Source: Trueperaceae bacterium (GTDB taxonomy: Bacteria; Deinococcota; Deinococci; Deinococcales; Trueperaceae). Taken from it: a stretch of DNA of 64,000 nt. A model generated the notes under the pieces. That model saw nothing but the letters and a program-made list of their open reading frames with translations, was not told the origin of the DNA and did no database searches. Each line of letters starts with the position of its first letter. Position 1 is the stretch's first letter. The stretch is taken from contig OZ243927.1 of NCBI GenBank assembly GCA_965213925.1, positions 864,001 through 928,000 on the forward strand, written 5' to 3'. Positions 20,683 to 49,125 of the stretch are shown here, piece after piece. The position numbers were made by a program, and so were the translations under genes.

Positions 20683-20730
20683 GGAAAGGTTGTTCTTTTG
20701 TCAGCGAAAGGGAAGCTGTATAATACAGCT

Positions 20731-20955: not shown

Positions 20956-20962
20956 ATTCTAG

Positions 20963-21364: not shown

Positions 21365-21385
21365 AACGTCAGAAGGGCTGAGCCA

Positions 21386-21417
21386 TTATGCGTGAGACGC
21401 GCGCGTCTCTTGCAGAA
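21386..21417. repeat. 32-bp candidate recombination site G
   Basis: TTATGCGTGAGAC-GCGCGC-GTCTCTTGCAGAA (30/32 identical to site A). Confidence 0.85.
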
Positions 21418-21438
21418 GAAATCAGCAAGTATAACTCT

Positions 21439-22099: not shown

Positions 22100-22131
22100 A
22101 ACGCTATTATACCTCAGCTTGAGAAATGGGA

Positions 22132-22163
22132 TTCTGCGTGTGATGCGCGCGTTCGCCGCACAA
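22132..22163. repeat. 32-bp candidate recombination site H
   Basis: TTCTGCGTGTGAT-GCGCGC-GTTCGCCGCACAA. Confidence 0.85.
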
Positions 22164-22216
22164 AATTATCGAAGAGAACAAACGATGCGATGAGAAACTA
22201 CTTTGTGCCCCAACAT

Positions 22217-23124: not shown

Positions 23125-23265
23125 AGCTAACCTCCAGACTACTGTCAATAATTATACGACAGAAGTCGCGTCAAGGCAGACTATTTATCGACATGTATGG
23201 TCAGTACACCTAACTGTCTTGAGGGGCTGATGTAGCGTATGCATGACCGCCCAGCCTACGCCTCG

Positions 23266-24734: not shown

Positions 24735-24799
24735 GGTTTTCCTCCATCTGTCAGAGCTTCGGGCGCACCCTGGCTACTCCTATAAGTGCGACCGGCGCG

Positions 24800-25780
24800 G
24801 GAACAGATGGAACTCGACGCCCGCGACGTGTGGCGCGCGCCAACTATCAAGAGGTGAAAGAGGGGCGCGGCACCGAGGCGGGCGGCGTGTTCCTAGACAT
24901 TTCACATAGGGACGCCGACTTCAAGAGGGGAGCGCCTCGGCACCGAGGCGGGTTCAAAGACGGCGTGTTCCTAGACATTTCACATAGGGACGCCGACTTT
25001 ATCCGGGAGCGCCTCCCTAAGATCGTTCGCCAGTTCAAAGAGCAGGGCGTGGACATCACCGCTGAGCCGATGGAGGTCGCCCCGACCGCGCACTACGCGA
25101 TGGGCGGCATCAAGATAGATTTCGGGACGGGCGAGACGGACGTGCCGGGGCTCTTCGCCTGCGGCGAGGCCACCTCGGGGGTGCATGGCGCGAACCGCTT
25201 AGGGGGTAACTCGCTCTGCGAGACGGTGGTCTTCGGGAAGGTTGTCGGCGCACATGTGGCGGGCGAGATAGGCGCGCTGCCCGAGCCGAACGTTGACGAG
25301 GACGAGGTGGACGCCGAACTCGCTCGGCTCCGCGACCTGAGCGAGGCAGATGGAGATACAGAACCCGACGCGCTGATAGACGAACTCGGCAACCTGCTCT
25401 GGGACCGCGCGGGGATCGTCCGCAACCAGGTGGGGCTCGAGCAAGGGCTAGAGGAGCTGGCTACGTTGCGCGAACGCGCTCAAAACCTCCGCGTCGAAGG
25501 GGGCGTGACGGGTCACGACTTCGAGTTCGCCAACAACTTACAGTTCATGCTGCTCGCAGCCGAAGCTATCCTGCGCGGCGCGCTCATGCGGGACGAGTCG
25601 CGCGGCGCGCACCACCGCGACGACGCCCCGGAGGAGAAAGAGGAGTGGCAACAGAACATCCTCTACCGCAAAGAAGGCGGGCAGATGGCGCTGACGACCG
25701 AGGCGGTCGGTGAAGTACCCGAAGGGATTCAGCACGCCATAGAGGAGGGGCACACGCTCGAGTATCATCACCTGGAGTAG
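24800..25780 (+). pseudogene. 5'-truncated SdhA/FrdA/NadB-family flavoprotein with an internal duplication
   Basis: ELDARDV (frameshifted), [48 protein letters not shown] present twice. Confidence 0.75.
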
Positions 25781-28485: not shown

Positions 28486-28680
28486 CAATTCCCCCTAGCA
28501 GCGTGGTGACGAAAGCTACGGTTCAGTTTAGCAGGTGGTCGGCTAAACGGTTCTCCCCCGAGTTAAGAGTAGACGGGCGTACTTTCGCGCCTATCCCGTT
28601 CCTCTACGCTGGACGGGTCGAAGGGGCAGGGTGCATCTCGGTATCTCACTCCTGACAACTTCAACCTAGGGGGAGTAGCG

Positions 28681-29469
28681 ATGAGGATAGGAGTAAGCAT
28701 TGTAACGTTGGCGGCGCTTTTGCCGCTCGGCTTGGCGCAGGAAACAGGCGGGTCACAGACGGGCGGCTCACAGGAGGTCTACAACGTCTCCACCGTGTCG
28801 GAGACCTTCGGGCTCTTCACGATGGGGCTGCAAAGGGTCTCAGCGCAGGCCGCCGTGCAGAACATCCAAGGCTGGCAGGCGCGTTTAGAGGCCACGGAAG
28901 ACGAGCAGTTCGTGAGCTTGTCCGACGAGCTAGGGAGCCTCGCCGAGGCGCTGCAAACCTCCTCGCCCGACACTGCCGCCATCGCTGAACAGCTCGTCGG
29001 TCTGGGCGAGCGGACGGATGAAATCGCTACGAATGTGGACGACGAAGACCTCGCCAGGCGTCTCTCGACGCTCAGCTACGTCCTTCAAGAGGTCGGACAG
29101 ACGGTCCAGCAGCAGCCGCAAGTTGACCTCTCTAACCTCATCCCGGTAGTGCCGCCCGTGCTCGGTCGGACGGCCCAGTTTCTGCAGGGCGACCTGAATA
29201 ACGCCTCCTTAGCGGCGGCGCTCCTTAATATCGAGGCGTGGCAGGGGCGCATCCTGACTAACATCGAGGGCGACGCGGCGGAGCAGCTCGTGGAAGACTT
29301 GGAGGAGTTGCAAAACACCTTGCAGATGGAGCAGCCCGACCAGGCGCAGTTGGGTGAGACTTTCAGCTCACTCGCCGAAAGCACACGCGGGGTAGCCGAA
29401 GAGGTGGACCCGGCTTTGCAGAACGCCTTGGAGGGCTTTGCCGGGGTGCTCGAGTCGGTGGGGCAGTAG
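28681..29469 (+). CDS. Secreted acidic helical protein with two internal repeats
   Basis: Signal peptide; AAVQNIQGWQ and AALLNIEAWQ repeats; GGGAG RBS. Confidence 0.7.
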   Translation: MRIGVSIVTLAALLPLGLAQETGGSQTGGSQEVYNVSTVSETFGLFTMGLQRVSAQAAVQNIQGWQARLEATEDEQFVSLSDELGSLAEALQTSSPDTAAIAEQLVGLGERTDEIATNVDDEDLARRLSTLSYVLQEVGQTVQQQPQVDLSNLIPVVPPVLGRTAQFLQGDLNNASLAAALLNIEAWQGRILTNIEGDAAEQLVEDLEELQNTLQMEQPDQAQLGETFSSLAESTRGVAEEVDPALQNALEGFAGVLESVGQ

Positions 29470-29660
29470 CTCACCGGTCAGCGATTGCTGTCAGGTTCAG
29501 GGGGAGGCGCACCTCCCCCTGAACTATTGTTGACCCTGCTGTTAACTCCGTCAAAGACAGCCGTAGTCTTCGAACAGGGCTGCGTATCAAACTGTAGTGG
29601 GTGCGTTCGTAGCACCGTCTCGAGCGCAATCTGCGCCGCTCAATCTCGAAAGCAGCGTTT

Positions 29661-29777
29661 ATGTCACCTCTTAAATTACTCGTCCCTTTAGACGGCACTG
29701 ACTTCAGCCAACGCATCATCCCTCACCTCACGCGCCTTTTTCGCCCTGAGGATATCCAGGTGCACCTCCTCCCCTGA
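29661..29777 (+). pseudogene. Universal stress protein N-terminal fragment
   Basis: MSPLKLLVPLDGTDFSQRIIPHLTRLF...VHLLP* resembles the Usp N-terminal motif. Confidence 0.5.
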
Positions 29778-30007
29778 TCCAACCGCTTAAAGGCGAAGTC
29801 TGACCACGTCGTGCTCAACGCCGCCTAGCTTGTCGCGCTCCTAGAGCCGATGCACACTAGCACGCGGACCTGCTGGGACAGGTGCCGCTTTCAGAACGGA
29901 GAAGTCAAATTCTCCTATAACGATCGCCGTATCTGCGTACGTTCTGCTTCACGCGTGAACGCGTTTTAGGCCGAAATGCGTGGTCAATGACTGGCCTCCG
30001 CCTCCTT

Positions 30008-30517
30008 TCAAGACTTGCGCGTGGCGGCTCTTCGTATGTACACAGTCCACCCTCGCCGCCGGACCGGAACACCGGGCAGGCTGGGGATCAGCCGATCAGC
30101 GACGACACCGGTGACGACCGCGTAAACGGCTTTGTGCAGCAGGTCGATCGCCTGCTCGTCCAGCGGCCACGTCCACGGCGGTGCGACGACGCCCGTGGCG
30201 TTTTCCAGGGTTTGGTCGTTGAGCAAGCGCAGATTCAGAAACAGGAACGACCCGACCGGGCCGCGCAGCCCCCGCTCAGCCATCAGCCCGCGCGCCGCAC
30301 CCAGAAGGATGCCCTGACCCCAGTGCATGCCTCGGTTCAGCCATAGGCGTTCCTCGTCGGGCTTCTGTGCGAGCCCTAACAGCCGTTCTAGCGTGTGGGC
30401 TGGCACGTACGAATCCGGTCGGCGGGTGATCGCCTGCTCGAGCTTCTCAGCGGCGGTCATCGCCGCGACCCCGACCAGACCCGCCGCTAGTCCGCGCAGC
30501 GCCGCGTTCTTCATCAC
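30008..30517 (-). CDS. Hypothetical membrane protein
   Basis: GLAAGLVGVAAMT...PDSYVPAHTL...DLLHKAVYA; GGAGG RBS. Confidence 0.7.
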   Translation of the reverse strand: MMKNAALRGLAAGLVGVAAMTAAEKLEQAITRRPDSYVPAHTLERLLGLAQKPDEERLWLNRGMHWGQGILLGAARGLMAERGLRGPVGSFLFLNLRLLNDQTLENATGVVAPPWTWPLDEQAIDLLHKAVYAVVTGVVADRLIPSLPGVPVRRRGWTVYIRRAATRKS

Positions 30518-30875
30518 CTTACCTCCGCTCTACCGGTGTAGTAGTAGAGGTCCTTTTTCCGTATCGCCAGGTTGATATACAAAGTCAAAGCCGCCTCCCC
30601 CTTCTTTCGCTCATGATACGCAAGGGGCGTTCTCTGGACCTTGCGCCACAACCCATAGTCCGGCGGTTCAATCAATGGTGCAGAGAGTCCGAAGCAAGGG
30701 GATTGGTCCCGTTGGACACAATTAGAAGACATAGACATGGTTGGGGAGAGGATGGGGAGAAGGCAACCGCGTGCGACATCGGCAAGCGTCCTTTCCACGG
30801 TCAGTTCGCCGACATCTTGTCCGTGTTCAAAATCTTTAGGCGTGGGAACGGACCAAAGGCTGCCTAGGCTCTAGC

Positions 30876-30907
30876 GCAGGAGTTTAACGCGCGCGTTCGC
30901 TGCACAG
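30876..30907. repeat. Candidate recombination site K (left arm degenerate)
   Basis: GCAGGAGTTTAAC-GCGCGC-GTTCGCTGCACAG. Confidence 0.65.
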
Positions 30908-31133
30908 GCCATTAGCAACCTCGCGAGAGGTATTGGAAGGGCTAAATGGACGAGCAAGGTGACGGCGAGCTTGCATGGAGCTTAGATACCTCTGCTTCTC
31001 GCTTAGCGACGGGCTGTGAATCAGGAGTAACAACTGAAGCTAAAAACACGGCTCCCACGAAAACCGCCCAGCGCATCGCCTAAATTGTGACACACCCCCA
31101 ACGGCTTACCGCCTCCACCTGAAAAAGTAAGGC

Positions 31134-32390
31134 GTGCTCAGGTCATCTCGCTCAGAGCCTCGCTGGGCAGCCCTGCTGCCCCTGCTACACTGCACAGCCC
31201 TAGCGCTTTCTATCCTTGCGGGTTGTAGTCCGGCGGCTACGCTTGAGCCGACGACACTTACGCAGCCCCTCCAAAACGTGCGGGGCAGGCCGATAGATCG
31301 GCTCGTTGCTCCTAGCGCCCTGCCGAGCGCGCGGCTTCTGAATCCCGAGGTCATCCTCTCGGGGCGCGGTGGTGCGCTGCTCGTCTCAAACGACCCGGAG
31401 TACCTCGCCGAGCCTGCCGCGCTGCCCCGTGCGCTCTACCGGGACGAGGTATCGGGCAGCTTCCGCGTCTTTTACCACCACACCAACCATACGAGGACAG
31501 ACCTCACCTTCGCTACCGCTGTCACTAACACGCACACCAGGCCGGTGCTGCTCTTTGGGCGAGGCTCAGGTCAGGGCACCAACCTCTATCCCGACATAGC
31601 AGGCCAAGTGGCCCTTAACGGCTACCTAAGGACGCGCTACCAAACAGCCCGCCTCGCCAGACTGGCTCCTGGCGAAAGCATATTCGTCACCCCCCACACC
31701 GCCGGGCCAAACGACACGGCGAGTGCCTTAGAGGAGTTTATCGCCCTCACGCCGTCCTCGGGAAGAGCTGCGCACGCGAACCGGTCCACCTTCTCAGCGC
31801 GCTTCTCGCCAGCTACCGTTACGCTCACCGTTCTGGCCTATAGAGGGGCCGCGCCGCGAGCGCCGCAGTCGCTCTCCGTCCTACCCGGCAGCCCCTTAGA
31901 GCGAGTTGACAAGACGCCCTATTATCTCCTGAAGCGGGGGACGTTCCCGTTCTTTGACCGCTACGCCGAGGTCGCCCTTTCGCCCGACACTGCCACCAAG
32001 TTGGTCGTGGACTCCGCCGTCTTTGGCCCCTTCTCCCGGGCTATACGGGGCGAATATCTTTTGGGGAGGGACGCGGTGAGCGGCGAATGGGGCTACAACA
32101 ACGGCAACTACGGGGTACTCTATAATTTCCGGCTCCGCGCCCGAAACGACGCCCTGTTGGGCTTGTCCTACGCCTTGCTAATGCAACCTTCCGGCGGGTT
32201 CGGGCATTACGCGGTGCAAACCCAGGGCGACGTCGTGACCTCCGCGTTTATCTCCTACAAAAACGCCTGGTGGTTCTACCGGGCACTCATTTTGGGACCT
32301 GGAGGCAGTCTAACGCTCCGCGCCGGCCTCACGGGTGGCTCGTTTGGGCCGCAGAAGTTCTTTTTCGTACCCTATAGGCGCTTTGAGTGA
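31134..32390 (+). CDS. Putative lipoprotein of unknown function
   Basis: Lipobox LAGC; LLVSNDPE, LYRD, RVFYHH, GNYGVLY motifs. Confidence 0.65.
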   Translation: MLRSSRSEPRWAALLPLLHCTALALSILAGCSPAATLEPTTLTQPLQNVRGRPIDRLVAPSALPSARLLNPEVILSGRGGALLVSNDPEYLAEPAALPRALYRDEVSGSFRVFYHHTNHTRTDLTFATAVTNTHTRPVLLFGRGSGQGTNLYPDIAGQVALNGYLRTRYQTARLARLAPGESIFVTPHTAGPNDTASALEEFIALTPSSGRAAHANRSTFSARFSPATVTLTVLAYRGAAPRAPQSLSVLPGSPLERVDKTPYYLLKRGTFPFFDRYAEVALSPDTATKLVVDSAVFGPFSRAIRGEYLLGRDAVSGEWGYNNGNYGVLYNFRLRARNDALLGLSYALLMQPSGGFGHYAVQTQGDVVTSAFISYKNAWWFYRALILGPGGSLTLRAGLTGGSFGPQKFFFVPYRRFE

Positions 32391-33454: not shown

Positions 33455-35677
33455 CTATGGGGAGGTATACACCCAATTTAGAAGTGCGCCTTCAACGCCC
33501 CCCGACACCAGACTGTCGCCATCAGATGACCAATCAAGGGCGAGAGAGCCAAAATCACCGAACGTCGTTTGCTGATGCCCTTCCAACCCCGTAATTCTTT
33601 CACCGGTGGCTGCCACCCAAACATGCACGCCGTCGTCCGCCTTCGCTTCGTCATCGTAGGTTGAACCTGACGTGGCGAGCCGGTGACCGTCAGGGCTCCA
33701 CGCTAACTCGTCAATGCCGTAAGGCGCTTCGATTGTAGCTAATGTTTTCTCTGAAGTACTATCAATGATTTGAACTTTTCCGCTCGACCCGCCGACGGCG
33801 AGCCGCTGGCTGTCAGGACTCCAGGCGATAGTTTTCGGATCTCGGTCAATTGTGAACGTGTGCATAAGGCGGCTAGTTTCCGCGTCCCACACTTTGACCT
33901 CGTCATAGCCTCCTCCAGCGAGCTTTGTCCCATCAGGGCTCCACGCCAGAGTAAAAATAGGGCGATAGTCTTGAACCTCGAATGTTTTGAGTAAGCTACC
34001 TGTCGTCCCATCTCGCACCTTGATCGTGCCATCTTGACCCCCACTTGCCAATCTCGTGCCGTCCGGACTCCAGCCGACTGCGTATACCTCACCACGGTGC
34101 GCGTCAACCGAGAAGAGTTGTTTGCGCGTAGCCATATCCCAAATCTTTAGAGCGCCTTCGTTGTCCTGACCACTGGCGCTTGCTAATTTTGAACCGTCCG
34201 GGTGCCAAGCGATGGCGTGAACAAAAGTGTCAAGCTCCGCTAGTGTACCGAGGCTGCGCCCCGAGGCGGCCTCCCAAACCTTAACGGTTCCGTCGTAACC
34301 TCCGCTCGCTACCTTGCCTTCGTGCAATTTGACAGTGGCGACCCGAGCCGCGTGACCGTTCGACGACATGACCTTTTGTCCGCTCTCGGCGTTCCACACG
34401 CTAAACCAAGGGATGGTGTCGTCGGCCGCAAAACGGTCGCCGTCGGGGTGCCAGTCTGCTCCTAAGACCACTCGAGCCTTCCCTACGACGCGCAGCATTT
34501 CTCTGCCCGTAGCGGCGTCCCAGATTCTTAGTTCACCCTCAGTTCCACCCCCTAAGATGCGATTCGTATTGGGTTCCCAGGCTACGACCAGAGGTTGAAA
34601 GTAATCTTCGTCGTCATCTCTCAACAGGACGCGCACAGGCTGACCCGTGTCAGCGTCCCAGATCACGACCTTGCCGCCGTTGCCGCTACTCACAAACTGC
34701 GAGCTGTCGGCGTTCCAGTCGACGTCCCAGACCCCTCCGAAAACATCAATCTCATAGAGGTGTTCGCCGGTTTCTGCATTCCATACACTGATCGAACGGT
34801 CTCCACCTACGATCTTCTCGCCATCCTGACTCCACGCCACAGCGTTATAGGTGTAATTATCGAGGCTCCAAAGCTCCTGGCCGCTCGCTATGTCCCACAC
34901 CCGCAATAACGCGTCGCCGCAGCTAACAAGTTTAGTCCCATCCGGACTCCAAGCTATATCGGTGACTTCTTCTGTATGTCCGACTAGGTCGGCGACGACT
35001 TCGCCCGTTGCCACAGACCAAACTTTAAGGCTTCCGCCCTTAAACGGTGCACCCGAACCACTTGCCACGAAAAGTCCATCCGGACTAAATGCGACCGCTT
35101 CGGCTTTTGCCGAATAGGTGTCGGAATCGAAATGATCATCGAGAGTGAATTTTAGGCTTCCCGTGGTTGCGTCCCAAAGTTTGACCATGCCGTCTGCCCC
35201 GCTAGTCGCGAGCAACTGTCCAGTCGGGCTCCAATCTAAATAGCGGACCTCCGCTGTATGGCCTGCGCCGAGTTTCCAGGCTACGTTAGTAGAGGGTAAC
35301 TGCCCTTCAACTTCTATCTTGCGCGTCGCTTTCGAGGACGTGCTCTTTGCGGAAAGCGTATAAGTTGTCTCTCCAACCGACCAGACAGCAGCTTCGGATA
35401 AACCGCTGACGTCGCCTATATCTGGCTCGAGAGTGAGCGTCAGCGACTCATCGGGAACTTGCCAGCTCAGCTGTACAGCCTCTCCGGCGGGCACAGTGAG
35501 CGTGGAAGCGGTCAATGACGTGATTAAAGTGGGGTCTGTCTCGAGGTCGACCGGGTTGTTGCCGTCTTTTACCTCATGAGTACACGATACTAACAGAGCC
35601 AAACTAAGAAGGAGGGAGCCGACGAGCCGTCTTTGATAAAAAGCCCGCACGTTCAGGCTGCTGAAATAGCGTCTCAT
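33455..35677 (-). CDS. WD40-repeat lipoprotein (probable double beta-propeller)
   Basis: Lipobox-like LLVSC; about 14 GH...WSPDG...WD repeats; ATGA overlap with the upstream gene. Confidence 0.9.
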   Translation of the reverse strand: MRRYFSSLNVRAFYQRRLVGSLLLSLALLVSCTHEVKDGNNPVDLETDPTLITSLTASTLTVPAGEAVQLSWQVPDESLTLTLEPDIGDVSGLSEAAVWSVGETTYTLSAKSTSSKATRKIEVEGQLPSTNVAWKLGAGHTAEVRYLDWSPTGQLLATSGADGMVKLWDATTGSLKFTLDDHFDSDTYSAKAEAVAFSPDGLFVASGSGAPFKGGSLKVWSVATGEVVADLVGHTEEVTDIAWSPDGTKLVSCGDALLRVWDIASGQELWSLDNYTYNAVAWSQDGEKIVGGDRSISVWNAETGEHLYEIDVFGGVWDVDWNADSSQFVSSGNGGKVVIWDADTGQPVRVLLRDDDEDYFQPLVVAWEPNTNRILGGGTEGELRIWDAATGREMLRVVGKARVVLGADWHPDGDRFAADDTIPWFSVWNAESGQKVMSSNGHAARVATVKLHEGKVASGGYDGTVKVWEAASGRSLGTLAELDTFVHAIAWHPDGSKLASASGQDNEGALKIWDMATRKQLFSVDAHRGEVYAVGWSPDGTRLASGGQDGTIKVRDGTTGSLLKTFEVQDYRPIFTLAWSPDGTKLAGGGYDEVKVWDAETSRLMHTFTIDRDPKTIAWSPDSQRLAVGGSSGKVQIIDSTSEKTLATIEAPYGIDELAWSPDGHRLATSGSTYDDEAKADDGVHVWVAATGERITGLEGHQQTTFGDFGSLALDWSSDGDSLVSGGVEGALLNWVYTSP

Positions 35678-36798
35678 TTGAAGAAGAGGCTCCAAAGGAT
35701 AACTTCTGCTCCTCGGCTACCAGAGACGAGAAACTGGCCGTCCGAACTCCAATCAAGCGTGGTAACTGATCCGATATGACCTATAAGTGAAACAAGCTCT
35801 TGGCCGGTTATGGCGTTCCAGATTTGGACACTTTGGCCGTCGCCGCTGGCGGCGAGTTGAGTACCGTCAGGGCTCCAGCTAAGCCCATAGATAAAGCGGT
35901 TAACGTCTGAATATATAGTGAACGGCTCCGAAGGAGATATCAGGGTCCATACCTTAACCTTGGACGAGTCAAGCGTAGCGGCTAAACGCGTACCGTCAGG
36001 GCTCCAAGCCAAATTGTGCACGCTATCGTAAGTGTCAAGCCCTTTCAAGACAATTTCCTTGCTCGTCGCGACCTCCCAAACGCTAACGTCTCCCCACTGG
36101 TTGCCCGCTGCGAGAAAACGTCCATCTGGACTCCAGACGATGTCAGCGATGCGGCCGGAGATTCCAGAAAAAGACACGCCCTCAGTCCCGGTCGCAGCGT
36201 CCCAGGTCTTAATAGCGCCTATACCGCTGTCTTTTAATTCGCCTCCTGCCGAGCGGACGCCATCCGGCCCCCAGTCGATAATCGCTTCGTAGCTGCCTTC
36301 AATCGTAAGTTGAAGACCTCCAGATGTTACGTCCCAAGTCTTGAATCTAGCCACGCTACCTGTCCCAGCGCCAGGGACGATTTCATAATAAGCAGCTGTT
36401 GTAAAGGCGCTGCCATCAGGCTTCCAAGTTGCGTCATCGAAGCCTGGATAGCTATTGTCGGTGAGAGACGATAGTTTCGTTCCGGTTGTAGTCTGCCACA
36501 GGTAGGCAACACCATCACGGGCAACGCTTAAAACACGGCTGTTGTCTGGGCTGAAGGTTACGGCAGTCACCTCGTCTTGGTGCCCCGCCGCGAAGGTGGT
36601 AATGGTCAGATCCTTCGCAGCAGTGTCTGCATTCCATAGTCCAAGCGTGCCATCTGTGGCTCCTGTGAGAAGTTTAGTGCCCTCTGGATGCCAAGCAATG
36701 TCGGCTTCCCAGGAAGAAAGTCCCTCCGTCTCCTTAGCGCCCTTGAGTTCTCGCAGCGCAGACCCAGTTGAGGCATCAGCAAGAATGGCATGGAGATC
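35674..36798 (-). pseudogene. 5'-truncated WD40-repeat protein
   Basis: WD40 frame continues upstream of 36570 (DIAWHPEGTKLLTGATDGTLGLWNA) to about 36798, where cas5e sequence takes over. Confidence 0.8.
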
Positions 36799-36800
36799 CC

Positions 36801-37073
36801 TAGCCGATCTATCTCGGTCGGCGTGGCTACTATCCGAGCGTCCCGCTGTTTGTCATTGACGGGCTGAAAAAGGCGAGTTTGGAGGAGGCTATCGCTACCT
36901 ATCCCCGTGTCCTAGCCGATAAAGCGGTGCGGTTCGCCGACTGCCACATCGAAGGCAAAGGCAAGGTCGTACACGACCAGCCCGTCAGCTTCGCCACTCA
37001 TACCTTCGGACCCCGGAGGGTCTACCACTGCTGCGTCAGCAAGTTAGGAGCATCATGTACGTCACCGAACTGA
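36801..37073 (+). pseudogene. cas5e: C-terminal half of type I-E Cas5 (Cas5e/CasD)
   Basis: *PIYLGRRGYYPSVPLF...DQPVSFATHTFGPRRV matches the Cas5e LYLGRKSCxPSxP and DxPxSF...F..R motifs; overlaps the cas6e start. Confidence 0.8.
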
Positions 37074-37723
37074 CCTTAAACCAGGACAACCTCTTCGCCA
37101 TGCGCGACGTCGCCGACCGCTACGAGACGCACCGCTCTGTGAAGCGCTTGACCGAAGGGATGGAGCGCAGGGTTTTGTGGCGGCTCGACATGCAGCGTGA
37201 ATGGCGGCTCACGGTTCAATGTGAGCGTCCGCTCGAGCCGCGCTATGTGTCCAAGGCGATGCCCGGATACGCCGATCAAGTCCGGAGCGCGGAGGTTGCT
37301 ACGAATTTCGACCCTGGCGACCTGCTCCTCTTCCAGCTCGAGGCGAACCCGACCGTGAAGTGTGCCAAAAAGCGGCGGGCGCTAAAGAGTATGGCTGAGC
37401 TACAGGAGTGGCTACAAAGGAAGTTTGATGATGCAGGTTGTGAACTCCTAGACTTTGCAATCTTGAAGCAGCAAGCGTTACGGTTATATCGCCAGAAGAG
37501 GCCAGATGAACAAGAAAATGACGACGAGAATGGGTGTAAGTACGCCATGTTCAACAGCGTCAGGTTCATGGGCAGCACTAAAGTAGTAGACCTTAAAGCG
37601 CTCAAAGATACGCTCGAGGCTGGCATCGGCAGCGCGAAGGGATATGGCTTTGGGTTGCTCTCATTGCGACCTATCCCTTACAGAGACATAGCTGGAGTTA
37701 AAGTCTCAAAAAGCGTGTGTTGA
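37055..37723 (+). CDS. cas6e: Type I-E CRISPR endoribonuclease Cas6e/Cse3
   Basis: MYVTELTL, YETHR, VLWRLD, FQLEANPT, QEWLQRK, G-rich loop GIGSAKGYGFGLLSL. Confidence 0.93.
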   Translation: MYVTELTLNQDNLFAMRDVADRYETHRSVKRLTEGMERRVLWRLDMQREWRLTVQCERPLEPRYVSKAMPGYADQVRSAEVATNFDPGDLLLFQLEANPTVKCAKKRRALKSMAELQEWLQRKFDDAGCELLDFAILKQQALRLYRQKRPDEQENDDENGCKYAMFNSVRFMGSTKVVDLKALKDTLEAGIGSAKGYGFGLLSLRPIPYRDIAGVKVSKSVC

Positions 37724-37729
37724 TCGAGC

Positions 37730-37878
37730 CTTTTCCCCACTCGCGTGGGGGTGGCGCGGGCGACTGATGCGCCTCGCCCTACTCCTCGCCTTTTCCCCAC
37801 TCGCGTGGGGGTGGCGCGCAAACGGGCGCGGCGAAGGGCAAAGAGGGCATTCTTCCCCACATTGGTGGGGGCGGTACC
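37730..37878 (+). CRISPR. Type I-E mini-array: 2 identical repeats, 1 diverged terminal repeat, 2 spacers (60-bp period)
   Basis: CTTTTCCCCACTCGCGTGGGGGTGGCGCG at 37730 and 37790; TTCTTCCCCACATTGGTGGGGGCGGTACC at 37850; CCCCAC/GTGGGG stem plus 8-nt handle; starts 7 bp after the cas6e stop. Confidence 0.92.
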
Positions 37879-38048
37879 ATCAGCAGAGCAAATCAAAAGC
37901 GAAAGCTGGAGTAAGTCCAGTGCATCGCGGCGAATCGCCAAAATACATTGGACGGCTGATGTATAGAAATGTCGATATCCAAGACATTGGGCGCATGATG
38001 TTTGAAACTCTTGATTAGACGAGGACTTACAGGAAGGCGTAGCAACTC

Positions 38049-38711
38049 CTATGTTGCGACTGGATGTCGAATCTCTCCAATCATGAGTCCCATTACTATG
38101 CTCGATTGGAACCAGCAGAAATTCTCGTCAACAGGGGCACGAAGTACATCCGTGAAACGCAGGTCGTACCCGCAAATTACGCAACAGTGGAGTTCCTCTT
38201 CGTCACCTCTACCGATCACTATAGCGCTCCCATAGCTATCACACTCGGTGTGTAGAAAGTTCTTATGATGTACGCAAACGCTGCAAAAGCTATACATCCA
38301 CTCCCGCCGAAAGAAAGGTTGCGTGTCCTCGAGAAGGCAGCGCGGACAATATTGAGTTGTGACAATTGGTTTAGGAGTTTTCGTCTGACGTGGGCGGTGA
38401 GAAAGTAGCTCACGCGAGCGGACACTCGCGCTTTTAATGCGTACCCGTGTCGGCGCAAGCAGCGCTTCGATATCGCCCACTGCTTGACCCGTACCCCGAG
38501 CCAAAACCTCGACCACGCTTTCTAGCTGACTGCCCTTTCGGTCTCTTATCCCTTTAGGGATAAGAGACTTGAGCAGCTTTTTTCCACTCCGCTTCTCCAA
38601 CACCTTCCAAAATCTATCCCAAGCTAAGCCGTTGCTCACAGCCAACCTAGCAACCCAGGAAGCGAAACTCTCACCTTGAAACAGTGAAGCGTGATACAGC
38701 CACAAATCCAT
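38049..38711 (-). CDS. tniQ: TniQ family target-selector protein
   Basis: N-terminal LWLYHASLFQGESFASWVARLAVSNG; Zn-binding QYCPRCLLED..PFFRREW...CVHH...CCVICGYDL. Confidence 0.85.
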   Translation of the reverse strand: MDLWLYHASLFQGESFASWVARLAVSNGLAWDRFWKVLEKRSGKKLLKSLIPKGIRDRKGSQLESVVEVLARGTGQAVGDIEALLAPTRVRIKSASVRSRELLSHRPRQTKTPKPIVTTQYCPRCLLEDTQPFFRREWMYSFCSVCVHHKNFLHTECDSYGSAIVIGRGDEEELHCCVICGYDLRFTDVLRAPVDENFCWFQSSIVMGLMIGEIRHPVAT

Positions 38712-38834
38712 ATGACAGTGTAGCAAATAGAGCAGCTTTCTTCGAAAGGACTGAAGTTGTAAACCGCTTCGGAGATCGCCCGTATACAGCCACTTTGTGA
38801 TATTATGCAGATGTGCCCCGCCCGAGCCAGAGCG

Positions 38835-38880
38835 ATTCTCAGTATTCTTTACCTATTCTCAAAATTCTTTGTTTCTGACA
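38835..38880 (-). mobile_element. Tn7-like transposon end (terminal TGT plus two putative TnsB-binding repeats)
   Basis: Minus strand reads TGTCAGAAAC-AAAGAATTTTGAGAAT-AGGT-AAAGAATACTGAGAAT; repeats at 38855-38870 and 38835-38850, 20-bp period. Confidence 0.7.
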
Positions 38881-38883
38881 CAC

Positions 38884-39908
38884 CTATTCGAATAGAGGCG
38901 ACTGCGGCGGATAGTTCGTAATCATGACCTCTTTGCCCTTCGCCGCGCCCTCTTGCTTATAGTTGTTCATCCCGTACTGAAGTTCCCAAGGGACGATGTG
39001 CGCAAATGAAAAGAGCGCCCTGACCTCTTCGCAATCGTCATAAGTGATGAGCCATTTGTGCTTCACCTTTTGCATCACGGCGGCAAAACGCTCGTGATCG
39101 AAGGTCGTGTGCAGCTTCCCTTTTTTGCCGTAGAGCTTTGACTTTGTAGCGGATAAATAGGGCGGGTCCAGGAAAATAAAGACGTTTTCGCCGCCTAACG
39201 CACCGGGAGACCCGGATGCTGCGGACCCTAAACCCGGATGCTGCGGACCCTAACGCACCGGGAGACCCGGATTTCGCCGGACCCTAACGCACCGGGAGAC
39301 CCGGATGCTGCGGACCCTAACGCACCGGGAGACCCGGATGCTGCGGACCCTAACGCACCGGGAGACCCGGATGCTGCGGATGGCGCTAAGACGACCTCTT
39401 CGTAGTCGAGATTGGTAATCTTGGTCCCTTCAAGAAGAGGGGCGACGCGCCGTAAACGCCCTATCGAGGACTGCGTGAAGCGCTTTTCAAATGCACCTTG
39501 CGAATAGCCGCCCGCTTCGACCGTGCCCGAAAAGGTGATGCGGTTGAGGAGAAAAAAGCGGATGGCTCTGTGTAAGGGTGCGTCGGGTACGTTATCGACC
39601 AATGAGCGGTGCAGCGTGCGTCCGTCTGTCACCGTATCTTTCTGCTGCTGCACGCCTTCGACGAGCGCCTCTGGGCAATCGCGTAGGTAAAGCCAGAAGT
39701 GGTAAAGCTCTGCGTTGAGGTCGCTAATCCAGAACGAGGCGTTTGGGTGTTGCTGCCGCAAAGCTAAAAAGACAGAGCCGCCCCCTATGAAGGGTTCGCG
39801 GAACTCGCTGAACGTTGGAACGAGCGGCAGGATGGTTTTAAGTGCTTTTGCCTTACCGCCTGGATACCTCAGCGGTGTTTTTACCGAAGTGAAAAGACCG
39901 TCTTGCAT
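38884..39908 (-). CDS. dam: Dam-family (D12 class) DNA adenine methyltransferase, frameshifted within a 33-bp tandem repeat as assembled
   Basis: TPLRYPGGK, EPFIGGGSVF, SDLN in 39228..39908; FIFLDPPY, FDHERF, WLITYDD, EVMITNY in the downstream frame. Confidence 0.85.
38924..38958 (-). other. Protospacer for CRISPR spacer 2 with 5' AAG PAM, in the 3' end of dam
   Basis: Minus strand AAG|CAAGAGGGCGCGGCGAAGGGCAAAGAGGTCAT versus spacer CAAACGGGCGCGGCGAAGGGCAAAGAGGGCAT: 29/32. Confidence 0.9.
39194..39380. repeat. 33-bp tandem repeat (about 5.5 copies, two aberrant)
   Basis: Unit CCTAACGCACCGGGAGACCCGGATGCTGCGGAC (GSAASGSPGAL); one 22-bp and one 34-bp copy. Confidence 0.9.
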
Positions 39909-40041
39909 TGACGTGCATCGTATCAGTCAATCGTGCCAGCTACTACCTCGAGGTGCAGGGTTAGGACACTACACGGAACAGTCACGCGCGAATGTCGCCT
40001 GACAGGAACGTAAAATATTTCACTTTGCTAAACTACCTCTA

Positions 40042-41688: not shown

Positions 41689-43428
41689 ATGTCGAGAGCA
41701 CATAAATACGACGTGATTGTGATTGGCGCGGGCGGCTCAGGGTTGATGGCGGCGCGGTACGCGGCGCAGGAGCCCGGCGTGTCCGTCGCGGTCATCAGTA
41801 AACTTTACCCGACCCGCTCGCATACAGGGGCGGCGCAAGGGGGTGTGGGCGCAGCTTTAGGCAACGTCACCGACGACCACCCCGACTGGCACGCCTTCGA
41901 TACGGTCAAGGGTGGCGACTACCTAGCGGACCAAGACGTCGCGGAGATGTTCGCGTACGAAGTCGTCGAGGCAGTCTACGAGTTAGAGCACATGGGCTTG
42001 CCCTTCTCACGTACGCCTGAAGGCAAAATCGCCCAGCGTAAATTCGGTGGGCACACCCGCGAATTCGGCAAGAGCGCCGTCGAACGTGCCTGCTACGCGG
42101 CGGACCGCACGGGTCACATGATTTTGCAGACGCTCTATCAGCAGTCCATCAAGAACAACGTGACCTTTTTCAACGAGTTCCACGTGCTCGACATGATCAT
42201 GGAAGCCGGTGAGTGTCGCGGCGTGGTGGCGTACGAGCTTGCCACGGGCGAGCTTCACACCTTCCAGGCGAAAGCCACGATTGTCGCCACCGGCGGCAAC
42301 GGGCGCATGTTCAAAGTGACCTCGAACGCGCACGCCTTGACGGGCGACATGATGAGCGTCGTCTACCGGCGCGGCATCCCGATTGAAGACCCCGAGTTTT
42401 ACCAGTTCCACCCGACGGGTCTCTACAAAATTGGCGTTTTACTGACTGAGGGCGCAAGAGGTGAAGGTGGGATTTTGCGTAATAGCGAGGGCGAGCGCTT
42501 TATGGAGCGTTACGCGCCTTCCATCAAGGACTTAGCGCCGCGGGACATGGTCTCGAGGGCGATGTACCTAGAGATGCGCGAAGGGCGCGGCACCGGACCC
42601 GACGCCGACTACATCCACCTCGACCTCACCCACATCGACGATCACATCATCGAGACGCGCCTCCCCGATATCACCGAGTTCGCCCGGATTTACCTAGGCG
42701 TTGACCCCTTAAACGAGCCCGTCCCCGTGCAACCCACCGCGCACTACGCGATGGGTGGCATCCCCACGACCATCGACACCGAAGTCATCATGGACGGCGA
42801 CAACGCCGTCGTGCCAGGGCTCTACGCCGCAGGTGAAACAGCGTGCGCCTCGCTGCACGGCGCGAACCGCCTCGGCACAAACTCGTTAGGCGACCTCATC
42901 GTGTTCGGACGCCGCGCGGGTATCTTCGCTGCTCGTTACGCCGCGGGAGCGGAGTACGGCAAGCTGCCTTTAGACGCGCAAGACTTTGCTAAGAGCCAAC
43001 TCGACACCGCGCTGAACGGCTCTGGTAAGGAGCGCGTGAGCCGCATTCGTAAAGAGATGCAAAACACCATGATGGACAACGCCTCGGTCTTCCGCACTGA
43101 AGAGACCCTGTGTACGCAGATCGAAAAGCTCAGAGAACTCAAAGAGCGCTATAAAGGCATCGGCGTTGAGGACAAGGGCGAGCAGTTCAACACGGAGCTG
43201 ATGGAAGCGATTGAACTCGGCTTCCTTTTAGACAACGCCGAGCACCTCGTCCACGCGGCGTATAACCGCAAGGAATCGCGCGGCGCGCACTCCCGCGAGG
43301 ACTACAAGGAGCGCAACGACGACGAGTGGCTCAAGCACACGCTCGTCTATAAAGACGGCGACGGCGTGCGCATCGACTATAAACCCGTAACCTTGGGCAA
43401 GTACGAGCCTAAGCCGAGAGTTTATTAA
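41689..43428 (+). CDS. sdhA: Succinate dehydrogenase flavoprotein
   Basis: [32 protein letters not shown]. Confidence 0.97.
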
Positions 43429-47827: not shown

Positions 47828-49125
47828 ATGAAGAGGTTCATTTTAGGGTTGCTCTCGCTGAGCCTGGTGTTCGGCGCGGCGCAGGCGCAAACGACGATCC
47901 GCTTTTCGGGGGGCGCGTCGGGTCCGGGGCTCGAGACCGAGCGCCAATTGGCCCAGATGTACATGGAGCAAAACCCGGACGTCACGGTCGAGGTGCTCCC
48001 CGGTCCCGACTCCTCGGACGAGCGTTTTTCTCTGTACCTCCAGCTCTTCGAGGCGCAGTCCGCCGACTTCGACGTGTTACAGCTCGACATCATCTGGCCC
48101 GGTCAGCTCGCGCAGCACCTCGTAGACTTGAATCAATACGGCGACATCCAGAGTTCGACCAGCGAGTTCTTCCCGGCCATCGTCGAGGCGAACACGGTGG
48201 ACGACAAGCTCGTCGCGATCCCTTGGTTCACCGACGCCGGGCTGCTCTACTACCGCACCGACCTCCTGGAGCAGTACGGCTTTGGCGGTCCGCCCGAGAC
48301 TTGGGCGGAGCTTGAAGAGATGTCCACCGCCATCCAAGAGGGTGAGCGCCAGAACAACCAAGACTTTAGCGCCTTTGTGTGGCAGGGTCAGTCTTACGAG
48401 GGGCTCACCTGCGACGCTCTGGAGTGGATCAACTCGGCGGGCGGCGGACAGATTATCAGCCCCGAGCAGGTTATTACGGTCTTCAACCCGAACGCGGTGG
48501 ATATGATAGCCCGCGCCGCAAGTTGGGTCGGCAACATCTCGCCTACAGGCGTCACGGGCTTTCAAGAGGAGGACGCGCGCAACTTCTTCCAGCCGGCAAC
48601 GCCGCGTTTATGCGTAACTGGCCCTACGCCTACAGCATCATGAACGCCGACGACAGCCCTATTTCGGGCAACTTCGACGTGGTGCCGCTGCCCCACATCG
48701 AGGGTAACAATTCCGCCGCCGCCTTGGGCGGCTGGAACTTAGGCGTGTCGCGCTACAGCCAAAACCCTGAGGTTGCCGCCGACGTCGCCGCGTTTTTCGC
48801 CTCACCCGACGCGCAGAAGCTCCGCGCGGTCGAGGGCAGCTTTATCCCGACGCGCCCCGCTCTGTTCGAAGACCAAGAGGTCTTGGAGGCGCAACCCTTC
48901 TTCGGACGTCTTTTGGACGTCTTTACGGGCGCCGTAGCGCGCCCTTCTGCGCCGACGGGTCAGCAGTACAACGAGGTCTCGAGGGCCTTCTACACCGCCG
49001 TCCACAACGTGCTCACAGGCGAGGAACAAGCGGAGATCGCCCTGGAGATTCTCGAGCTTGACCTCCAAGACATCACCGGCTTCGAAGTCGGCGACCCGCA
49101 GACGCAGACGGGTTCGACTCAGTAG
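47828..49125 (+). pseudogene. Sugar (trehalose/maltose-type) ABC substrate-binding protein, 1-bp frameshift near 48592
   Basis: DIIWPG, WFTDAGLLYYRTDLL, YEGLTC in the first frame; GNAAFMRNWPY and LGGW in the second. Confidence 0.85.

What the first reader, a model, noticed from the sequence alone, without database searches (positions are those of the whole stretch)
37819..38958. Spacer 2 targets the adjacent dam gene with a canonical I-E PAM
Seen: spacer 37819-37850 CAAACGGGCGCGGCGAAGGGCAAAGAGGGCAT matches the minus strand at 38955-38924 (CAAGAGGGCGCGGCGAAGGGCAAAGAGGTCAT) at 29/32, with mismatches at positions 4, 5 and 29. It is preceded by AAG, the established I-E PAM. The PAM-distal end points at the predicted transposon end 43 bp away (75 bp from the PAM), the geometry expected for RNA-guided insertion. 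Inference: this is a homing spacer, and the 3' end of dam is the attachment site.
Basis: partly seen in the sequence, partly recalled or inferred. Interest (0 to 1): 0.92.

Follow-up and report, generated by a model that had tools for sequence, protein, structure and literature searches.

The report
Relic RNA-guided transposon beside dam gene
A broken-down remnant of a CRISPR-guided jumping gene lies just after a DNA methylase gene, and one of its two guide sequences still matches that gene, which hints at a kind of guided transposon (type I-E CRISPR with TniQ) that I did not find described.

Summary
Spacer 37819-37850 matches the minus strand at 38955-38924 in 29 of 32 positions, with mismatches at 4, 5 and 29. 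It is preceded by AAG. No shuffle reproduces the match, and nothing found elsewhere comes closer than 27/32.

Its context is a 2.1-kb stump with these parts, in order:
- the last third of cas5e
- an intact-looking cas6e
- a two-spacer array 7 nt after cas6e, with no cas1-cas2 and a degenerate last repeat
- a converging tniQ carrying an in-frame TAG

This anatomy fits a homing guide of a TniQ-dependent CRISPR-associated transposon.

The copy is dead, however. The 64 kb hold no tnsA/B/C, cas8e, cas11 or cas7, and no second end. cas5e is cut off at 36804. dam itself is frameshifted.

No independent insertion was found: 0 of 12 dam loci in other genomes carry one. The close relatives could not be fetched.

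The only type I-E CAST I found in print (I-E5, telomeric) lacks TniQ and shows no end-adjacent protospacer. I therefore read this as the relic of an undescribed variant, at moderate confidence.

The parts
36804..37073 (+). cas5e fragment: the C-terminal third only, with TGA at 37071-37073; overlaps the start of cas6e
   Evidence: Pfam Cas_Cas5d E 0.0023, profile positions 138-217 of 217. PADLOC Cas5e E 0.0012, positions 144-227 of 230. tblastn with T. thermophilus HB8 Cas5e: residues 150-231 of 248 match 36804-37043, 38% identity, E 4e-10.
37055..37723 (+). cas6e (CasE/Cse3), 222 aa, looks intact
   Evidence: PF08798 E 3.6e-34 over the full profile. TIGR01907 casE_Cse3 E 3e-18. Aligns end to end with T. 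thermophilus Cse3 1WJ9, E 3e-21, with Y23, H26 and the glycine-rich loop aligned.
37731..37758 (+). CRISPR repeat 1 (28 nt), 7 nt after the cas6e stop
   Evidence: Identical to repeat 2, period 60 (D2). Folds into a 7-bp stem with a 4-nt loop.
37759..37790 (+). spacer 1 (32 nt), no target found
   Evidence: No second match in the window at up to 3 mismatches; best 21/32. Only weak partial hits in phages and plasmids.
37791..37818 (+). CRISPR repeat 2 (28 nt); its last base G also pairs with the PAM
37819..37850 (+). spacer 2 (32 nt), the presumed homing guide
   Evidence: 29/32 to 38955-38924 on the minus strand; 0 of 100 shuffles
37851..37878 (+). terminal degenerate repeat 3 (28 nt); hairpin kept, loop and both flanks changed
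   Evidence: Sequence read. Folds into the same 7-bp stem, -12.1 kcal/mol.
37893..38711 (-). tniQ pseudogene: about 272 codons with an in-frame TAG at 38049-38051; converges on the array
   Evidence: PF06527 E 2e-17. PADLOC TniQ E 7.6e-19. tblastn of relative P0004 (residues 1-268 of 272) runs through the stop in one frame to 37908. The stop stands where relative P0140 has W, and one Cys of a CxxC pair is Y.
38831..38882 (-). candidate transposon end: TGTGTCAGAAAC followed by two tandem 20-bp direct repeats (38870-38851 and 38850-38831)
   Evidence: (D1). The 19-nt terminus is unique in the window. No inverted partner anywhere in the window.
38924..38955 (-). protospacer in the dam 3' coding region (codons for Q-E-G-A-A-K-G-K-E-V-M)
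   Evidence: The motif is conserved in 119 Dam homologues.
38956..38958 (-). AAG (Lys codon) 5' of the protospacer: the PAM position
38884..39249 (-). dam C-terminal part (DPPY motif to the native stop TAG at 38886-38884), in a different frame from the N-terminal part
   Evidence: PF02086 profile 175-253 of 253, E 1.4e-11. Translation. The tail ..NYPPQSPLFE* resembles the tails of the closest homologues.
39228..39908 (-). dam N-terminal part, ending in a stop inside a tandem repeat
   Evidence: PF02086 profile 1-172, E 1.9e-20; translation
39177..39380 (.). 33-nt tandem repeat (units encode SAASGSPGALG) inside dam; two off-length units break the frame
   Evidence: (D1)
35677..36852 (-). WD40 reading frame that abuts the cas5e fragment. 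WD40 repeats reach its upstream limit, before any start codon, so the junction near 36804 joins two truncated genes.

Best explanation
Positions 36804-38882 are the target-proximal stump of a CRISPR-associated transposon that used a type I-E Cascade together with a small TniQ of about 272 aa.

In the intact ancestor (inferred), Cas6e cut the short array. The last crRNA carried spacer 2, an ordinary 5' handle and an altered 3' hairpin. Cascade loaded with it bound the conserved C-terminal motif of a Dam-family methylase gene next to an AAG. TniQ, held at the Cas6e (PAM-distal) end of Cascade, recruited the transposase. The element then inserted about 42 bp further on, one base after the dam stop codon, leaving dam's coding sequence whole.

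Later the copy decayed. A deletion or rearrangement removed everything upstream of codon ~150 of cas5e, together with the transposase genes and the far end. tniQ picked up a nonsense codon. Spacer and target drifted apart by 3 bases. dam was frameshifted by a repeat expansion.

Shown: the match, the PAM-position triplet, the gene content, the truncations, and the position of the boundary relative to the dam stop and the protospacer. Inferred: that the boundary is a transposon end, that a transposase once existed, that TniQ contacted Cascade, and the order of events.
For: Match and specificity
- 29/32 plus AAG; no other match in the window; about 3e-9 by chance.
- It is the best match found anywhere. 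The best phage or plasmid hit is 27/32, E 9, and none lies in a methylase. Of 106 pattern matches in 185,579 species genomes the best is 25/32, and the 17 dam orthologues score 18-22/32.

CAST-like architecture
- cas5e and cas6e overlap as they do in Thermus.
- The array starts 7 nt after cas6e with no cas1e-cas2e, whereas T. thermophilus HB8 has cas6e-cas1e-cas2e.
- There are only two spacers. The matching one is last and is followed by a diverged repeat that keeps the hairpin.
- tniQ lies between the array and the end.

Boundary
- A TGT terminus plus two tandem 20-bp repeats lies one base after the dam stop.
- The dam tail matches the tails of its closest homologues, so the stop is native.

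Geometry
- The element lies on the PAM-distal side. 41 nt separate protospacer and terminus, about 75 nt from the PAM.
- This compares with roughly 49 bp from the PAM-distal edge in type I-F3 (10.1101/706143, passages) and 75 +/- 6 bp from the PAM in type I-D McCAST (PMC9881144, passages).

Target choice
- The protospacer covers near-invariant residues of a Dam family: 2926 proteins with E <= 0.001 among 2940 candidates.
- Among 119 homologues, A 118, G 119, E 119 and I 118.
- Mismatches 4 and 5 fall in the most variable codon, which carries 12 different residues.

Linkage elsewhere
- The only close TniQ relatives (3 hits in 5.8 billion proteins; 3 with E <= 1e-30 in 1.84 billion representatives) are listed with contigs of 5,838,999 and 7,077 nt.
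- Close Cas6e relatives are listed with contigs of the same two lengths. I take each pair to share a contig.

Precedent
- Mismatch-tolerant homing crRNAs with atypical repeats are described for type I-F3 (PMC11406308, passages).
Against: - No tnsA, tnsB/tniA, tnsC/tniB, cas8e, cas11 or cas7 was found in the 64 kb. This rests on Pfam scans of 62 ORFs of 120 aa or more, out of 80 listed, 46 of 111 stop-to-stop frames from 28.4-39.4 kb, and tblastn with seven Thermus Cas proteins. That a transposase ever belonged to this stump is therefore inference.
- Only one end candidate exists, with no inverted partner, and no target-site duplication can be read.
- No independent insertion: 0 of 12 dam loci with flanks carry TniQ, a Tn7-type transposase or Cas genes downstream. 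56 of 62 ORFs were scanned, and four of the loci had only 1.2-3.9 kb of flank.
- No spacer-like hit elsewhere.
- Mismatches at spacer positions 4 and 5 lie in what I recall as the seed of E. coli Cascade. None of the three mismatches is at a third codon position.
- AAG is also the acquisition PAM of ordinary type I-E systems (recalled), so a plain self-targeting spacer would look the same at that triplet.
- The nearest TniQ proteins with known context (26% identity) sit in tniA-tniB-tniQ operons without tnsA or cas genes.
- Rfam recognises no CRISPR repeat family here.
Confidence: 0.65

Rival explanations
1. A decayed ordinary type I-E defence locus holds a self-targeting spacer. Cas1-Cas2 once took a spacer from the cell's own dam next to an AAG. 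Autoimmunity then selected for loss of the cas operon and for seed mutations. tniQ is an unrelated neighbour.
For: The AAG triplet and the pairing of the repeat's last G with the PAM are what E. coli-type acquisition leaves (recalled; match). Mismatches at seed positions 4 and 5 and the loss of the Cascade genes are classic escapes from self-targeting.
Against: - cas1e-cas2e are missing on the side of cas6e that the deletion did not touch; the array starts 7 nt after cas6e.
- The target lies 1.07 kb from the spacer. By my estimate the chance of that for a random self-spacer is about 5e-4, taking the 4.58-Mb contig length listed.
- tniQ sits exactly between array and target. The target lies 41 nt from a TGT/direct-repeat boundary that coincides with the dam stop.
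- TniQ and Cas6e relatives are listed with contigs of the same two lengths, which I take to be shared contigs.
Confidence: 0.12
2. The element was RNA-guided but was not Tn7-like. It was a three-gene tniA-tniB-tniQ (Tn5053/Tn402-like) element, or another transposase type, that captured a type I-E Cascade, with no TnsA.
For: The TniQ is small (about 272 aa). Its nearest relatives with context, at 26% identity, lie in operons annotated Mu-transposase-C-terminal / TniB / TniQ on Agrobacterium and Pseudomonas plasmids. Type V-K and I-E5 elements also lack TnsA (I-E5: 10.1101/2024.11.13.623437, section 14; V-K: recalled).
Against: Nothing in the window speaks to the transposase type. 26% identity says little about the partner genes.
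Confidence: 0.3
3. The guide is regulatory. A Cascade without a nuclease binds the 3' end of dam to modulate the methylase or read-through into the element, and no transposition is involved.
For: The crRNA would pair with the template strand inside a gene that abuts the element.
Against: The site lies at the last codons of dam, far from any promoter. Regulation does not explain tniQ or the boundary just after the stop codon. No Cascade genes remain.
Confidence: 0.03
4. The match is chance, or a duplicated scrap of dam that is not a spacer.
For: None beyond the small size of the array (two spacers).
Against: About 3e-9 by chance. The match fills exactly the 32-nt interval between two hairpin-forming repeats, next to cas6e.
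Confidence: 0.01

Closest known systems
[quoted passage not shown]
   Same: TniQ is linked to a Cascade operon without cas1-cas2. A short array follows cas6. A chromosome-matching guide is flanked by an atypical repeat and tolerates mismatches. The target is a conserved gene, and insertion is on the PAM-distal side at a set distance of about 49 bp (10.1101/706143, passages; PMC11406308, passages).
   Different: Here the effector is type I-E (Cas6e, Cas5e), not I-F. TniQ is about 272 aa rather than about 400 and sits alone at the target-proximal end, transcribed inward. In I-F3 it precedes cas8 (operon order named in the methods of 10.1101/706143). The spacing is 41-42 bp rather than about 49. 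The att gene is dam rather than guaC, yciA, ffs or rsmJ. This copy is a stump.
Type I-D CAST (McCAST)
   Same: It is a type I Cascade CAST with TniQ. Insertions lie 75 +/- 6 bp from the PAM, the same PAM-to-end distance as measured here (PMC9881144, passages).
   Different: It uses a different Cascade subtype and a different PAM (GTT). No sequence relationship was tested.
Type I-E CAST of Streptomyces telomeric TnsBC transposons (I-E5)
   Same: It is the only type I-E system I found reported with a transposon (10.1101/2024.11.13.623437, sections 13-14; PMC12669027, passages).
   Different: I-E5 lacks TniQ, keeps an active Cas3, has tnsBC after the Cascade genes in place of cas1-2, has arrays upstream of cas3, and shows no protospacer next to its end. 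This locus has TniQ, an array directly after cas6e, and a protospacer 41 nt from its end. The window's Cas6e is 24-30% identical to the Streptomyces plasmid Cas6e shown among the 40 rows (35 Streptomyces records matched in all), against 32-36% for Thermus.
Tn7 at attTn7 (TnsD and glmS), and an archaeal Tn7-like element that uses a methylase gene as att site
   Same: Both recognise a conserved coding sequence. Tn7 inserts just past the stop codon so that the gene survives (recalled). A DNA methylase gene as att site is reported in 10.1101/2025.07.27.667033 (passages).
   Different: Those are protein-guided through TnsD/TniQ DNA binding, and the archaeal element disrupts its methylase. Here a crRNA match marks the site and the coding sequence is left whole by the insertion.
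Canonical type I-E CRISPR-Cas (T. thermophilus HB8 pTT27, E. coli)
   Same: Cas6e is 35% identical to Thermus Cse3 over its full length. cas5e and cas6e overlap. Spacers are 32 nt, the repeat forms a hairpin, and AAG stands at the PAM position (AAG as the I-E PAM is recalled).
   Different: There is no cas1e-cas2e after cas6e. The repeat is 28 nt, not 29 (29 is recalled). The array is tiny, and tniQ follows it.

Membership tests
TniQ-dependent CRISPR-associated transposon (CAST) | A tniQ gene physically linked to CRISPR effector genes | tested here: met
   The tniQ reading frame ends 15 nt from the array, which lies 7 nt after cas6e. tniQ carries an in-frame stop in this copy.
TniQ-dependent CRISPR-associated transposon (CAST) | Transposase core genes inside the element (tnsB/tniA DDE transposase, tnsC/tniB AAA+ regulator, with or without tnsA) | tested here: not met
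   None found in the 64 kb by Pfam on 62 of 80 ORFs of 120 aa or more and 46 of 111 stop-to-stop frames in 28.4-39.4 kb. The upstream part of the element is missing.
TniQ-dependent CRISPR-associated transposon (CAST) | A complete effector (Cascade) without adaptation genes and without an active nuclease | tested here: inconclusive
   cas1e-cas2e are absent after cas6e. cas8e, cas11 and cas7 are absent and cas5e is truncated in this copy. Whether cas3 was ever present cannot be judged, because the upstream part is gone.
TniQ-dependent CRISPR-associated transposon (CAST) | Two ends with repeated transposase-binding sites and a target-site duplication | tested here: inconclusive
   There is one candidate end (TGT plus two 20-bp direct repeats). 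No partner was found in the window, and no duplication can be read.
TniQ-dependent CRISPR-associated transposon (CAST) | A guide that matches DNA just outside one end, on the PAM-distal side, at the family's characteristic distance | tested here: met
   29/32 match, 41 nt between protospacer and terminus, element on the PAM-distal side.
TniQ-dependent CRISPR-associated transposon (CAST) | Independent insertions at the same site and distance in other genomes | tested here: not met
   0 of 12 dam loci with flanks, out of 17 dam hits among 106 pattern matches, carry TniQ, Tns or Cas genes downstream. The close relatives could not be fetched.
Type I-E CRISPR-Cas | Cas6e (CasE/Cse3) endoribonuclease | tested here: met
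   PF08798 E 3.6e-34; TIGR01907 66.9 bits against a cut-off of 45.2; 1WJ9 E 3e-21.
Type I-E CRISPR-Cas | Signature subunits Cse1/Cas8e and Cse2/Cas11, with Cas7e and Cas5e | tested here: not met
   Only the last third of Cas5e remains. Thermus CasA, CasB and Cas7e gave no tblastn hit with E below 1.
Type I-E CRISPR-Cas | Repeat-spacer unit of about 61 nt with a hairpin repeat and 32-nt spacers | tested here: met
   Period 60 (28 + 32), with a 7-bp stem and a 4-nt loop. No Rfam CRISPR repeat family matches.
Type I-E5 (telomeric TnsBC CAST of Streptomyces) | No TniQ; tnsBC in the operon in place of cas1-2; arrays upstream of cas3; no protospacer next to the end | tested here: not met
   TniQ is present, the array follows cas6e, and a protospacer lies 41 nt from the end. 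The features of I-E5 are taken from 10.1101/2024.11.13.623437, sections 13-14.
Dam family (D12 class N6-adenine methyltransferase), the target gene | Match to the D12 methyltransferase profile across the whole domain, in one reading frame | tested here: not met
   Profile positions 1-172 and 175-253 lie in two different frames, separated by a 33-nt tandem repeat. The gene is a member by descent but is broken in this assembly.

The most novel reading that the evidence does not exclude
This stump is the first trace of a TniQ-dependent type I-E CRISPR-associated transposon family. It is separate from the telomeric I-E5 elements. It homes by a crRNA to the conserved C-terminal motif of a widespread Dam-family methylase gene. 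Because that family also rides on cyanobacterial plasmids and a cyanophage, the same guide class could serve both for chromosomal homing and for hopping onto mobile DNA. Apparently intact members may exist: P0004 (272 aa TniQ) and P0008 (202 aa Cas6e) are both listed with a 5.84-Mb contig.
Probability: 0.5. Interest if true: 0.8.

Novelty: new variant of a known kind. Interest (0 to 1): 0.62.

Why it matters
RNA-guided transposons are sought both as genome-insertion tools and as examples of defence systems captured by mobile DNA. By my recollection, type I-E Cascade is the best-understood CRISPR effector.

In the passages I read, the 2025 CRISPR classification lists Tn7-like CASTs only for I-F, I-B, I-D, I-C, IV-A and (recalled) V-K. 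It also lists a TniQ-less I-E5 whose targeting mechanism is unclear (PMC12669027).

A TniQ-coupled type I-E CAST would be another independent capture of Cascade by a TniQ-bearing transposon. It would give a direct comparison of how TniQ docks on the Cas6e end of a very well-studied complex. It would also add a new kind of attachment gene, a horizontally mobile methylase.

The present copy cannot be used as it stands. Its value is as a pointer to the few relatives.

Tried and rejected
- Cas6e-anchored scan of 185,579 species genomes: 43 pattern matches, none confirmed. Neither the window's genome nor the relative is in that collection.
- Degenerate protospacer scan: 106 matches, 17 of them in dam genes and no spacer-like hit. 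L098 looked similar at the peptide level, but it is an unrelated gene junction with no repeats.
- Downstream scan of 12 dam loci: only unrelated genes. A DDE_5 IS transposase (L019), an IS605 OrfB (L057) and a serine recombinase (L013) were the only mobile genes.
- The listing of cluster members for accessions of the relatives: switched off, so not obtained.
- AlphaFold2 model of TniQ from a 5-sequence alignment: mean pLDDT 49.3, too poor for a fold search, so none was made.
- Sequence search of TniQ against solved structures: only weak hits, the best being I-F3 TniQ 7u5d at E 0.017.
- ESM Atlas: TniQ-family clusters only, nothing more specific.
It was never accepted because the queue was full, so TniQ-Cas6e contact stays untested.
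- Rfam on 36500-40000: no family.
- Search for a second end: background-level matches only.
- Idea that the sdhA-like fragment at 24830-25780 is a recent duplicate of the sdhA at 41689-43428, marking a rearrangement: rejected, since they are 35% identical.
- Promoter scan: one sigma-70-like site inside the end repeats, but 2 sites were found against 1.3 expected, so it is not evidence.
Supplements of the bioRxiv papers were not seen. They may list loci that bear on whether such elements were already noticed.
Full report
OBSERVATION

The 32-nt interval 37819-37850 lies between two 28-nt hairpin repeats. It matches the minus strand at 38955-38924 in 29 of 32 positions, with mismatches at 4, 5 and 29. 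AAG stands on the same strand just 5' of the match (38958-38956). The last base of the upstream repeat also pairs, which gives a 33-nt inverted repeat. No shuffle of the window gives a second match (0 of 100). The next best site in the window has 21/32, and I estimate about 3e-9 for 29/32 or better anywhere in the window.

WHAT SURROUNDS THE MATCH

Reading left to right on the plus strand:

- 36804-37073 encodes only the last third of Cas5e. Evidence: Pfam E 0.0023, profile 138-217 of 217; PADLOC Cas5e E 0.0012; T. thermophilus Cas5e residues 150-231 of 248, E 4e-10, starting exactly at 36804.
- 37055-37723 is a full-length Cas6e. Evidence: PF08798 E 3.6e-34; TIGR01907 above its cut-off. It aligns end to end with Thermus Cse3 1WJ9, E 3e-21, with Y23, H26 and the glycine-rich loop aligned.
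- Seven nucleotides later the array begins: repeat, spacer 1, repeat, spacer 2, then a diverged third repeat. That repeat keeps the 7-bp stem but changes the loop and both flanks.
- There is no cas1e or cas2e after cas6e. On T. thermophilus pTT27 the order is cas5e-cas6e-cas1e-cas2e.
- A tniQ gene converges on the array from the other strand (PF06527 E 2e-17; PADLOC TniQ E 7.6e-19).
- tblastn with the closest full-length relative (P0004, 272 aa) runs in one frame from 38711 to 37908, straight through a TAG at 38049-38051. Read through with X, the frame gives 272 residues. The stop stands where relative P0140 has tryptophan, and one cysteine of a CxxC pair is tyrosine. tniQ is therefore a pseudogene, or at best lacks its last 50 residues.

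THE BOUNDARY

Reading the minus strand from dam inward:

- The dam frame ends ...EVMITNYPPQSPLFE, with TAG at 38886-38884.
- One base later comes TGTGTCAGAAAC, then two tandem 20-bp direct repeats at 38870-38851 and 38850-38831.
- The closest Dam homologues end in the same kind of tail (...NYPVQLSPLFE...NYSPRLSPLFG...NFPLENSPLFG). The stop is therefore the native one, and the foreign DNA begins right after it.
- 41 nt separate the PAM-distal base of the protospacer from the TGT, which is about 75 nt from the PAM.
- The 19-nt terminus and the 20-bp repeat have no inverted partner anywhere in the window.

WHAT IS MISSING

- Pfam scans of 62 of the 80 ORFs of 120 aa or more across the window found no transposase of the Tn7/Mu type, no TnsC/TniB, no TnsA and no Cas8e, Cas11 or Cas7. 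The 18 ORFs left out overlap larger ORFs.
- A scan of 46 of 111 stop-to-stop frames between 28.4 and 39.4 kb found none either.
- Nor did tblastn with seven Thermus type I-E proteins.
- To the left of 36804 lies a minus-strand WD40 frame. Its repeats run up to its upstream limit, before any start codon. The junction thus joins two truncated genes.
- The remnant is 2.1 kb long, 36804-38882.

THE TARGET GENE

dam is a D12-class adenine methylase. Its N-terminal part (39228-39908) and C-terminal part (38884-39249) are in different frames. A 33-nt tandem repeat separates them; its units encode SAASGSPGALG, and two off-length units break the frame.

The C-terminal motix under the protospacer is strongly conserved:

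- 2926 longer proteins match the C-terminal part with E <= 0.001.
- In 119 of the best 120, the motif QYGMNNYKQ-xx-AAKGKE is present, with A 118, G 119, E 119 and I 118 of 119.
- Mismatches 4 and 5 fall in the first of the two variable codons, which carries 12 different residues. Among the closest relatives alone it is R, A, K, E or G.
- Mismatch 29 falls in the Val/Leu codon, where the spacer would encode Gly.

The family is spread by horizontal transfer. Named members come from cyanobacteria, CPR bacteria and Chitinophagaceae. It lies on 8 cyanobacterial plasmids at 60-80% identity and on Microcystis phage Mic1 at 68%. Its neighbours differ from genome to genome.

- A better phage or plasmid match: none. 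The best phage hit covers 72% of the spacer. The best plasmid hit over the full length is 27/32, E 9, and none lies in a methylase. Spacer 1 has no convincing target either.
- Independent insertions: I scanned one genome per species (185,579 genomes) with a codon-degenerate form of the protospacer.
  - Of 106 matches, 17 are in dam genes of this family and none is spacer-like.
  - The best identity to the spacer is 25/32, in an unrelated gene. The dam orthologues score 18-22/32.
  - For the 12 dam loci with flanks, I scanned 56 of 62 ORFs of 110 aa or more within 8 kb downstream; six overlapping ones were dropped. None is TniQ, a Tn7-type transposase or a Cas protein. Four of these loci had only 1.2-3.9 kb of flank.
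  - The fixed-distance test therefore could not be made.

RELATIVES

- The TniQ has 3 hits in 5.8 billion proteins: itself, P0004 at 56% and P0005 at 79%.
- A profile search of 1.84 billion representatives adds only two fragments before a gap from E 5e-27 to E 2e-18.
- Cas6e has four close hits.
- P0004 and P0008 are each listed with a contig of 5,838,999 nt, and P0005 and P0009 each with one of 7,077 nt. I take each pair to share a contig, which means the tniQ-cas6e linkage recurs.
- P0005 and P0009 look broken too.
- None of these records could be fetched.

MECHANISM

The best reading is a homing guide of a TniQ-dependent CAST built on type I-E Cascade, now a fossil.

Supporting comparisons from print:
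- In type I-F3, TniQ sits on Cas6 and Cas7.1 at the PAM-distal end, and insertion is about 49 bp beyond it (10.1101/706143, passages).
- In type I-D McCAST, insertions lie 75 +/- 6 bp from the PAM (PMC9881144, passages).
- I-F3 homing crRNAs carry atypical repeats and tolerate mismatches (PMC11406308, passages).

The main rival is a self-targeting spacer in a dying defence locus. It explains the AAG, the seed mismatches and the loss of Cascade. It does not explain the native absence of cas1-cas2 after cas6e, the tniQ gene, the 1-kb proximity, or a boundary at the dam stop 41 nt from the protospacer.

Which transposase the element had is open. The nearest TniQ proteins with context (26% identity) belong to tniA-tniB-tniQ operons.

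COMPARISON WITH WHAT IS KNOWN, AND NOVELTY

- Four full-text searches and term searches inside PMC10293859 (no occurrence of 'I-E') and PMC11406308 (none) found type I-E linked to transposons only as follows:
  - Streptomyces telomeric TnsBC elements. These lack TniQ, keep Cas3 and show no end-adjacent protospacer (10.1101/2024.11.13.623437, sections 13, 14 and 30 read). They are named I-E5 in PMC12669027 (passages).
  - Rpn-associated candidates (10.1101/2021.08.16.456562, passages).
  - One sentence saying that I-E CASTs lack transposition proteins (PMC8464060).
- This locus fails the I-E5 definition on every architectural point.
- I rate it a new variant of a known kind, known here only from a dead copy.

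CAVEATS

- Several genes in the window are split: WD40, a solute-binding protein and dam. Either the genome is decaying, or the assembly carries indel errors.
- The tniQ stop is a substitution and the cas5e truncation is structural, so these two do not depend on indel errors.
- The statements about the E. coli type I-E PAM, the PAM-derived last repeat base and the seed positions are recalled, not tested here.

Noticed in passing
window 39177-39380: A 33-nt tandem repeat of about 4.5-6 units inside the dam gene, between the target-recognition part and the DPPY motif. Its units encode SAASGSPGALG in frame, but a 34-nt and a 22-nt unit break the frame. The unit occurs nowhere else in the window. 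This may be a repeat expansion that killed dam, or an assembly error in a repeat.
   Followed up: partly
window 33455-36852, minus strand: Two overlapping WD40-repeat frames (746 aa and 392 codons) look like one long gene split by a frameshift. Its 5' end is cut at the junction with cas5e near 36804.
   Followed up: partly
window 24830-25780: The C-terminal half of a flavoprotein of the SdhA/FrdA family, only 35% identical to the complete sdhA at 41689-43428. It has an internal duplication near its start (GVFLDISHRDADF appears twice). A 21-nt tandem repeat follows at 25793-25834.
   Followed up: partly
window 19816-23148: An island-like cluster: a tyrosine recombinase, a PIN-domain toxin with a small upstream ORF, an HNH endonuclease and an Xre/MbcA/ParS-type antitoxin. 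There is no tRNA gene in the window.
   Followed up: no
window 23400-32000: A block of higher G+C (0.61-0.69) between stretches of 0.51-0.58. It holds a 906-aa AMP-binding / carrier / acyltransferase protein and several ORFs with no family match, for example 31134-32390 (418 aa).
   Followed up: no
window 47828-49125: An extracellular solute-binding protein gene split into two overlapping frames (profile positions 9-226 and 222-307). This is another likely frameshift.
   Followed up: no
window 38694-38703 and 38784-38793: The same 10-mer (GTGGCTGTAT on the minus strand) occurs twice, once 73 nt upstream of the tniQ start and once across codons 3-6 of tniQ. It may be an operator or chance (D2). 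A sigma-70-like site lies inside the end repeats at 38862-38835, but this is not above expectation.
   Followed up: no
loci L013 and L064 (CPR bacteria), L043 (Aphanothece): In other genomes, dam genes of this family sit next to a large serine recombinase (L013), a terminase small subunit (L064) or a HaeIII-type restriction enzyme (L043). The target gene family is therefore itself often part of mobile or restriction-modification modules.
   Followed up: partly
window 37519-37570 (Cas6e residues about 148-165): The window's Cas6e has a 13-residue acidic stretch that the relatives P0008 and P0007 lack. It aligns with a matching segment of Thermus Cse3, so the relatives carry a deletion rather than the window an insertion.
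   Followed up: partly
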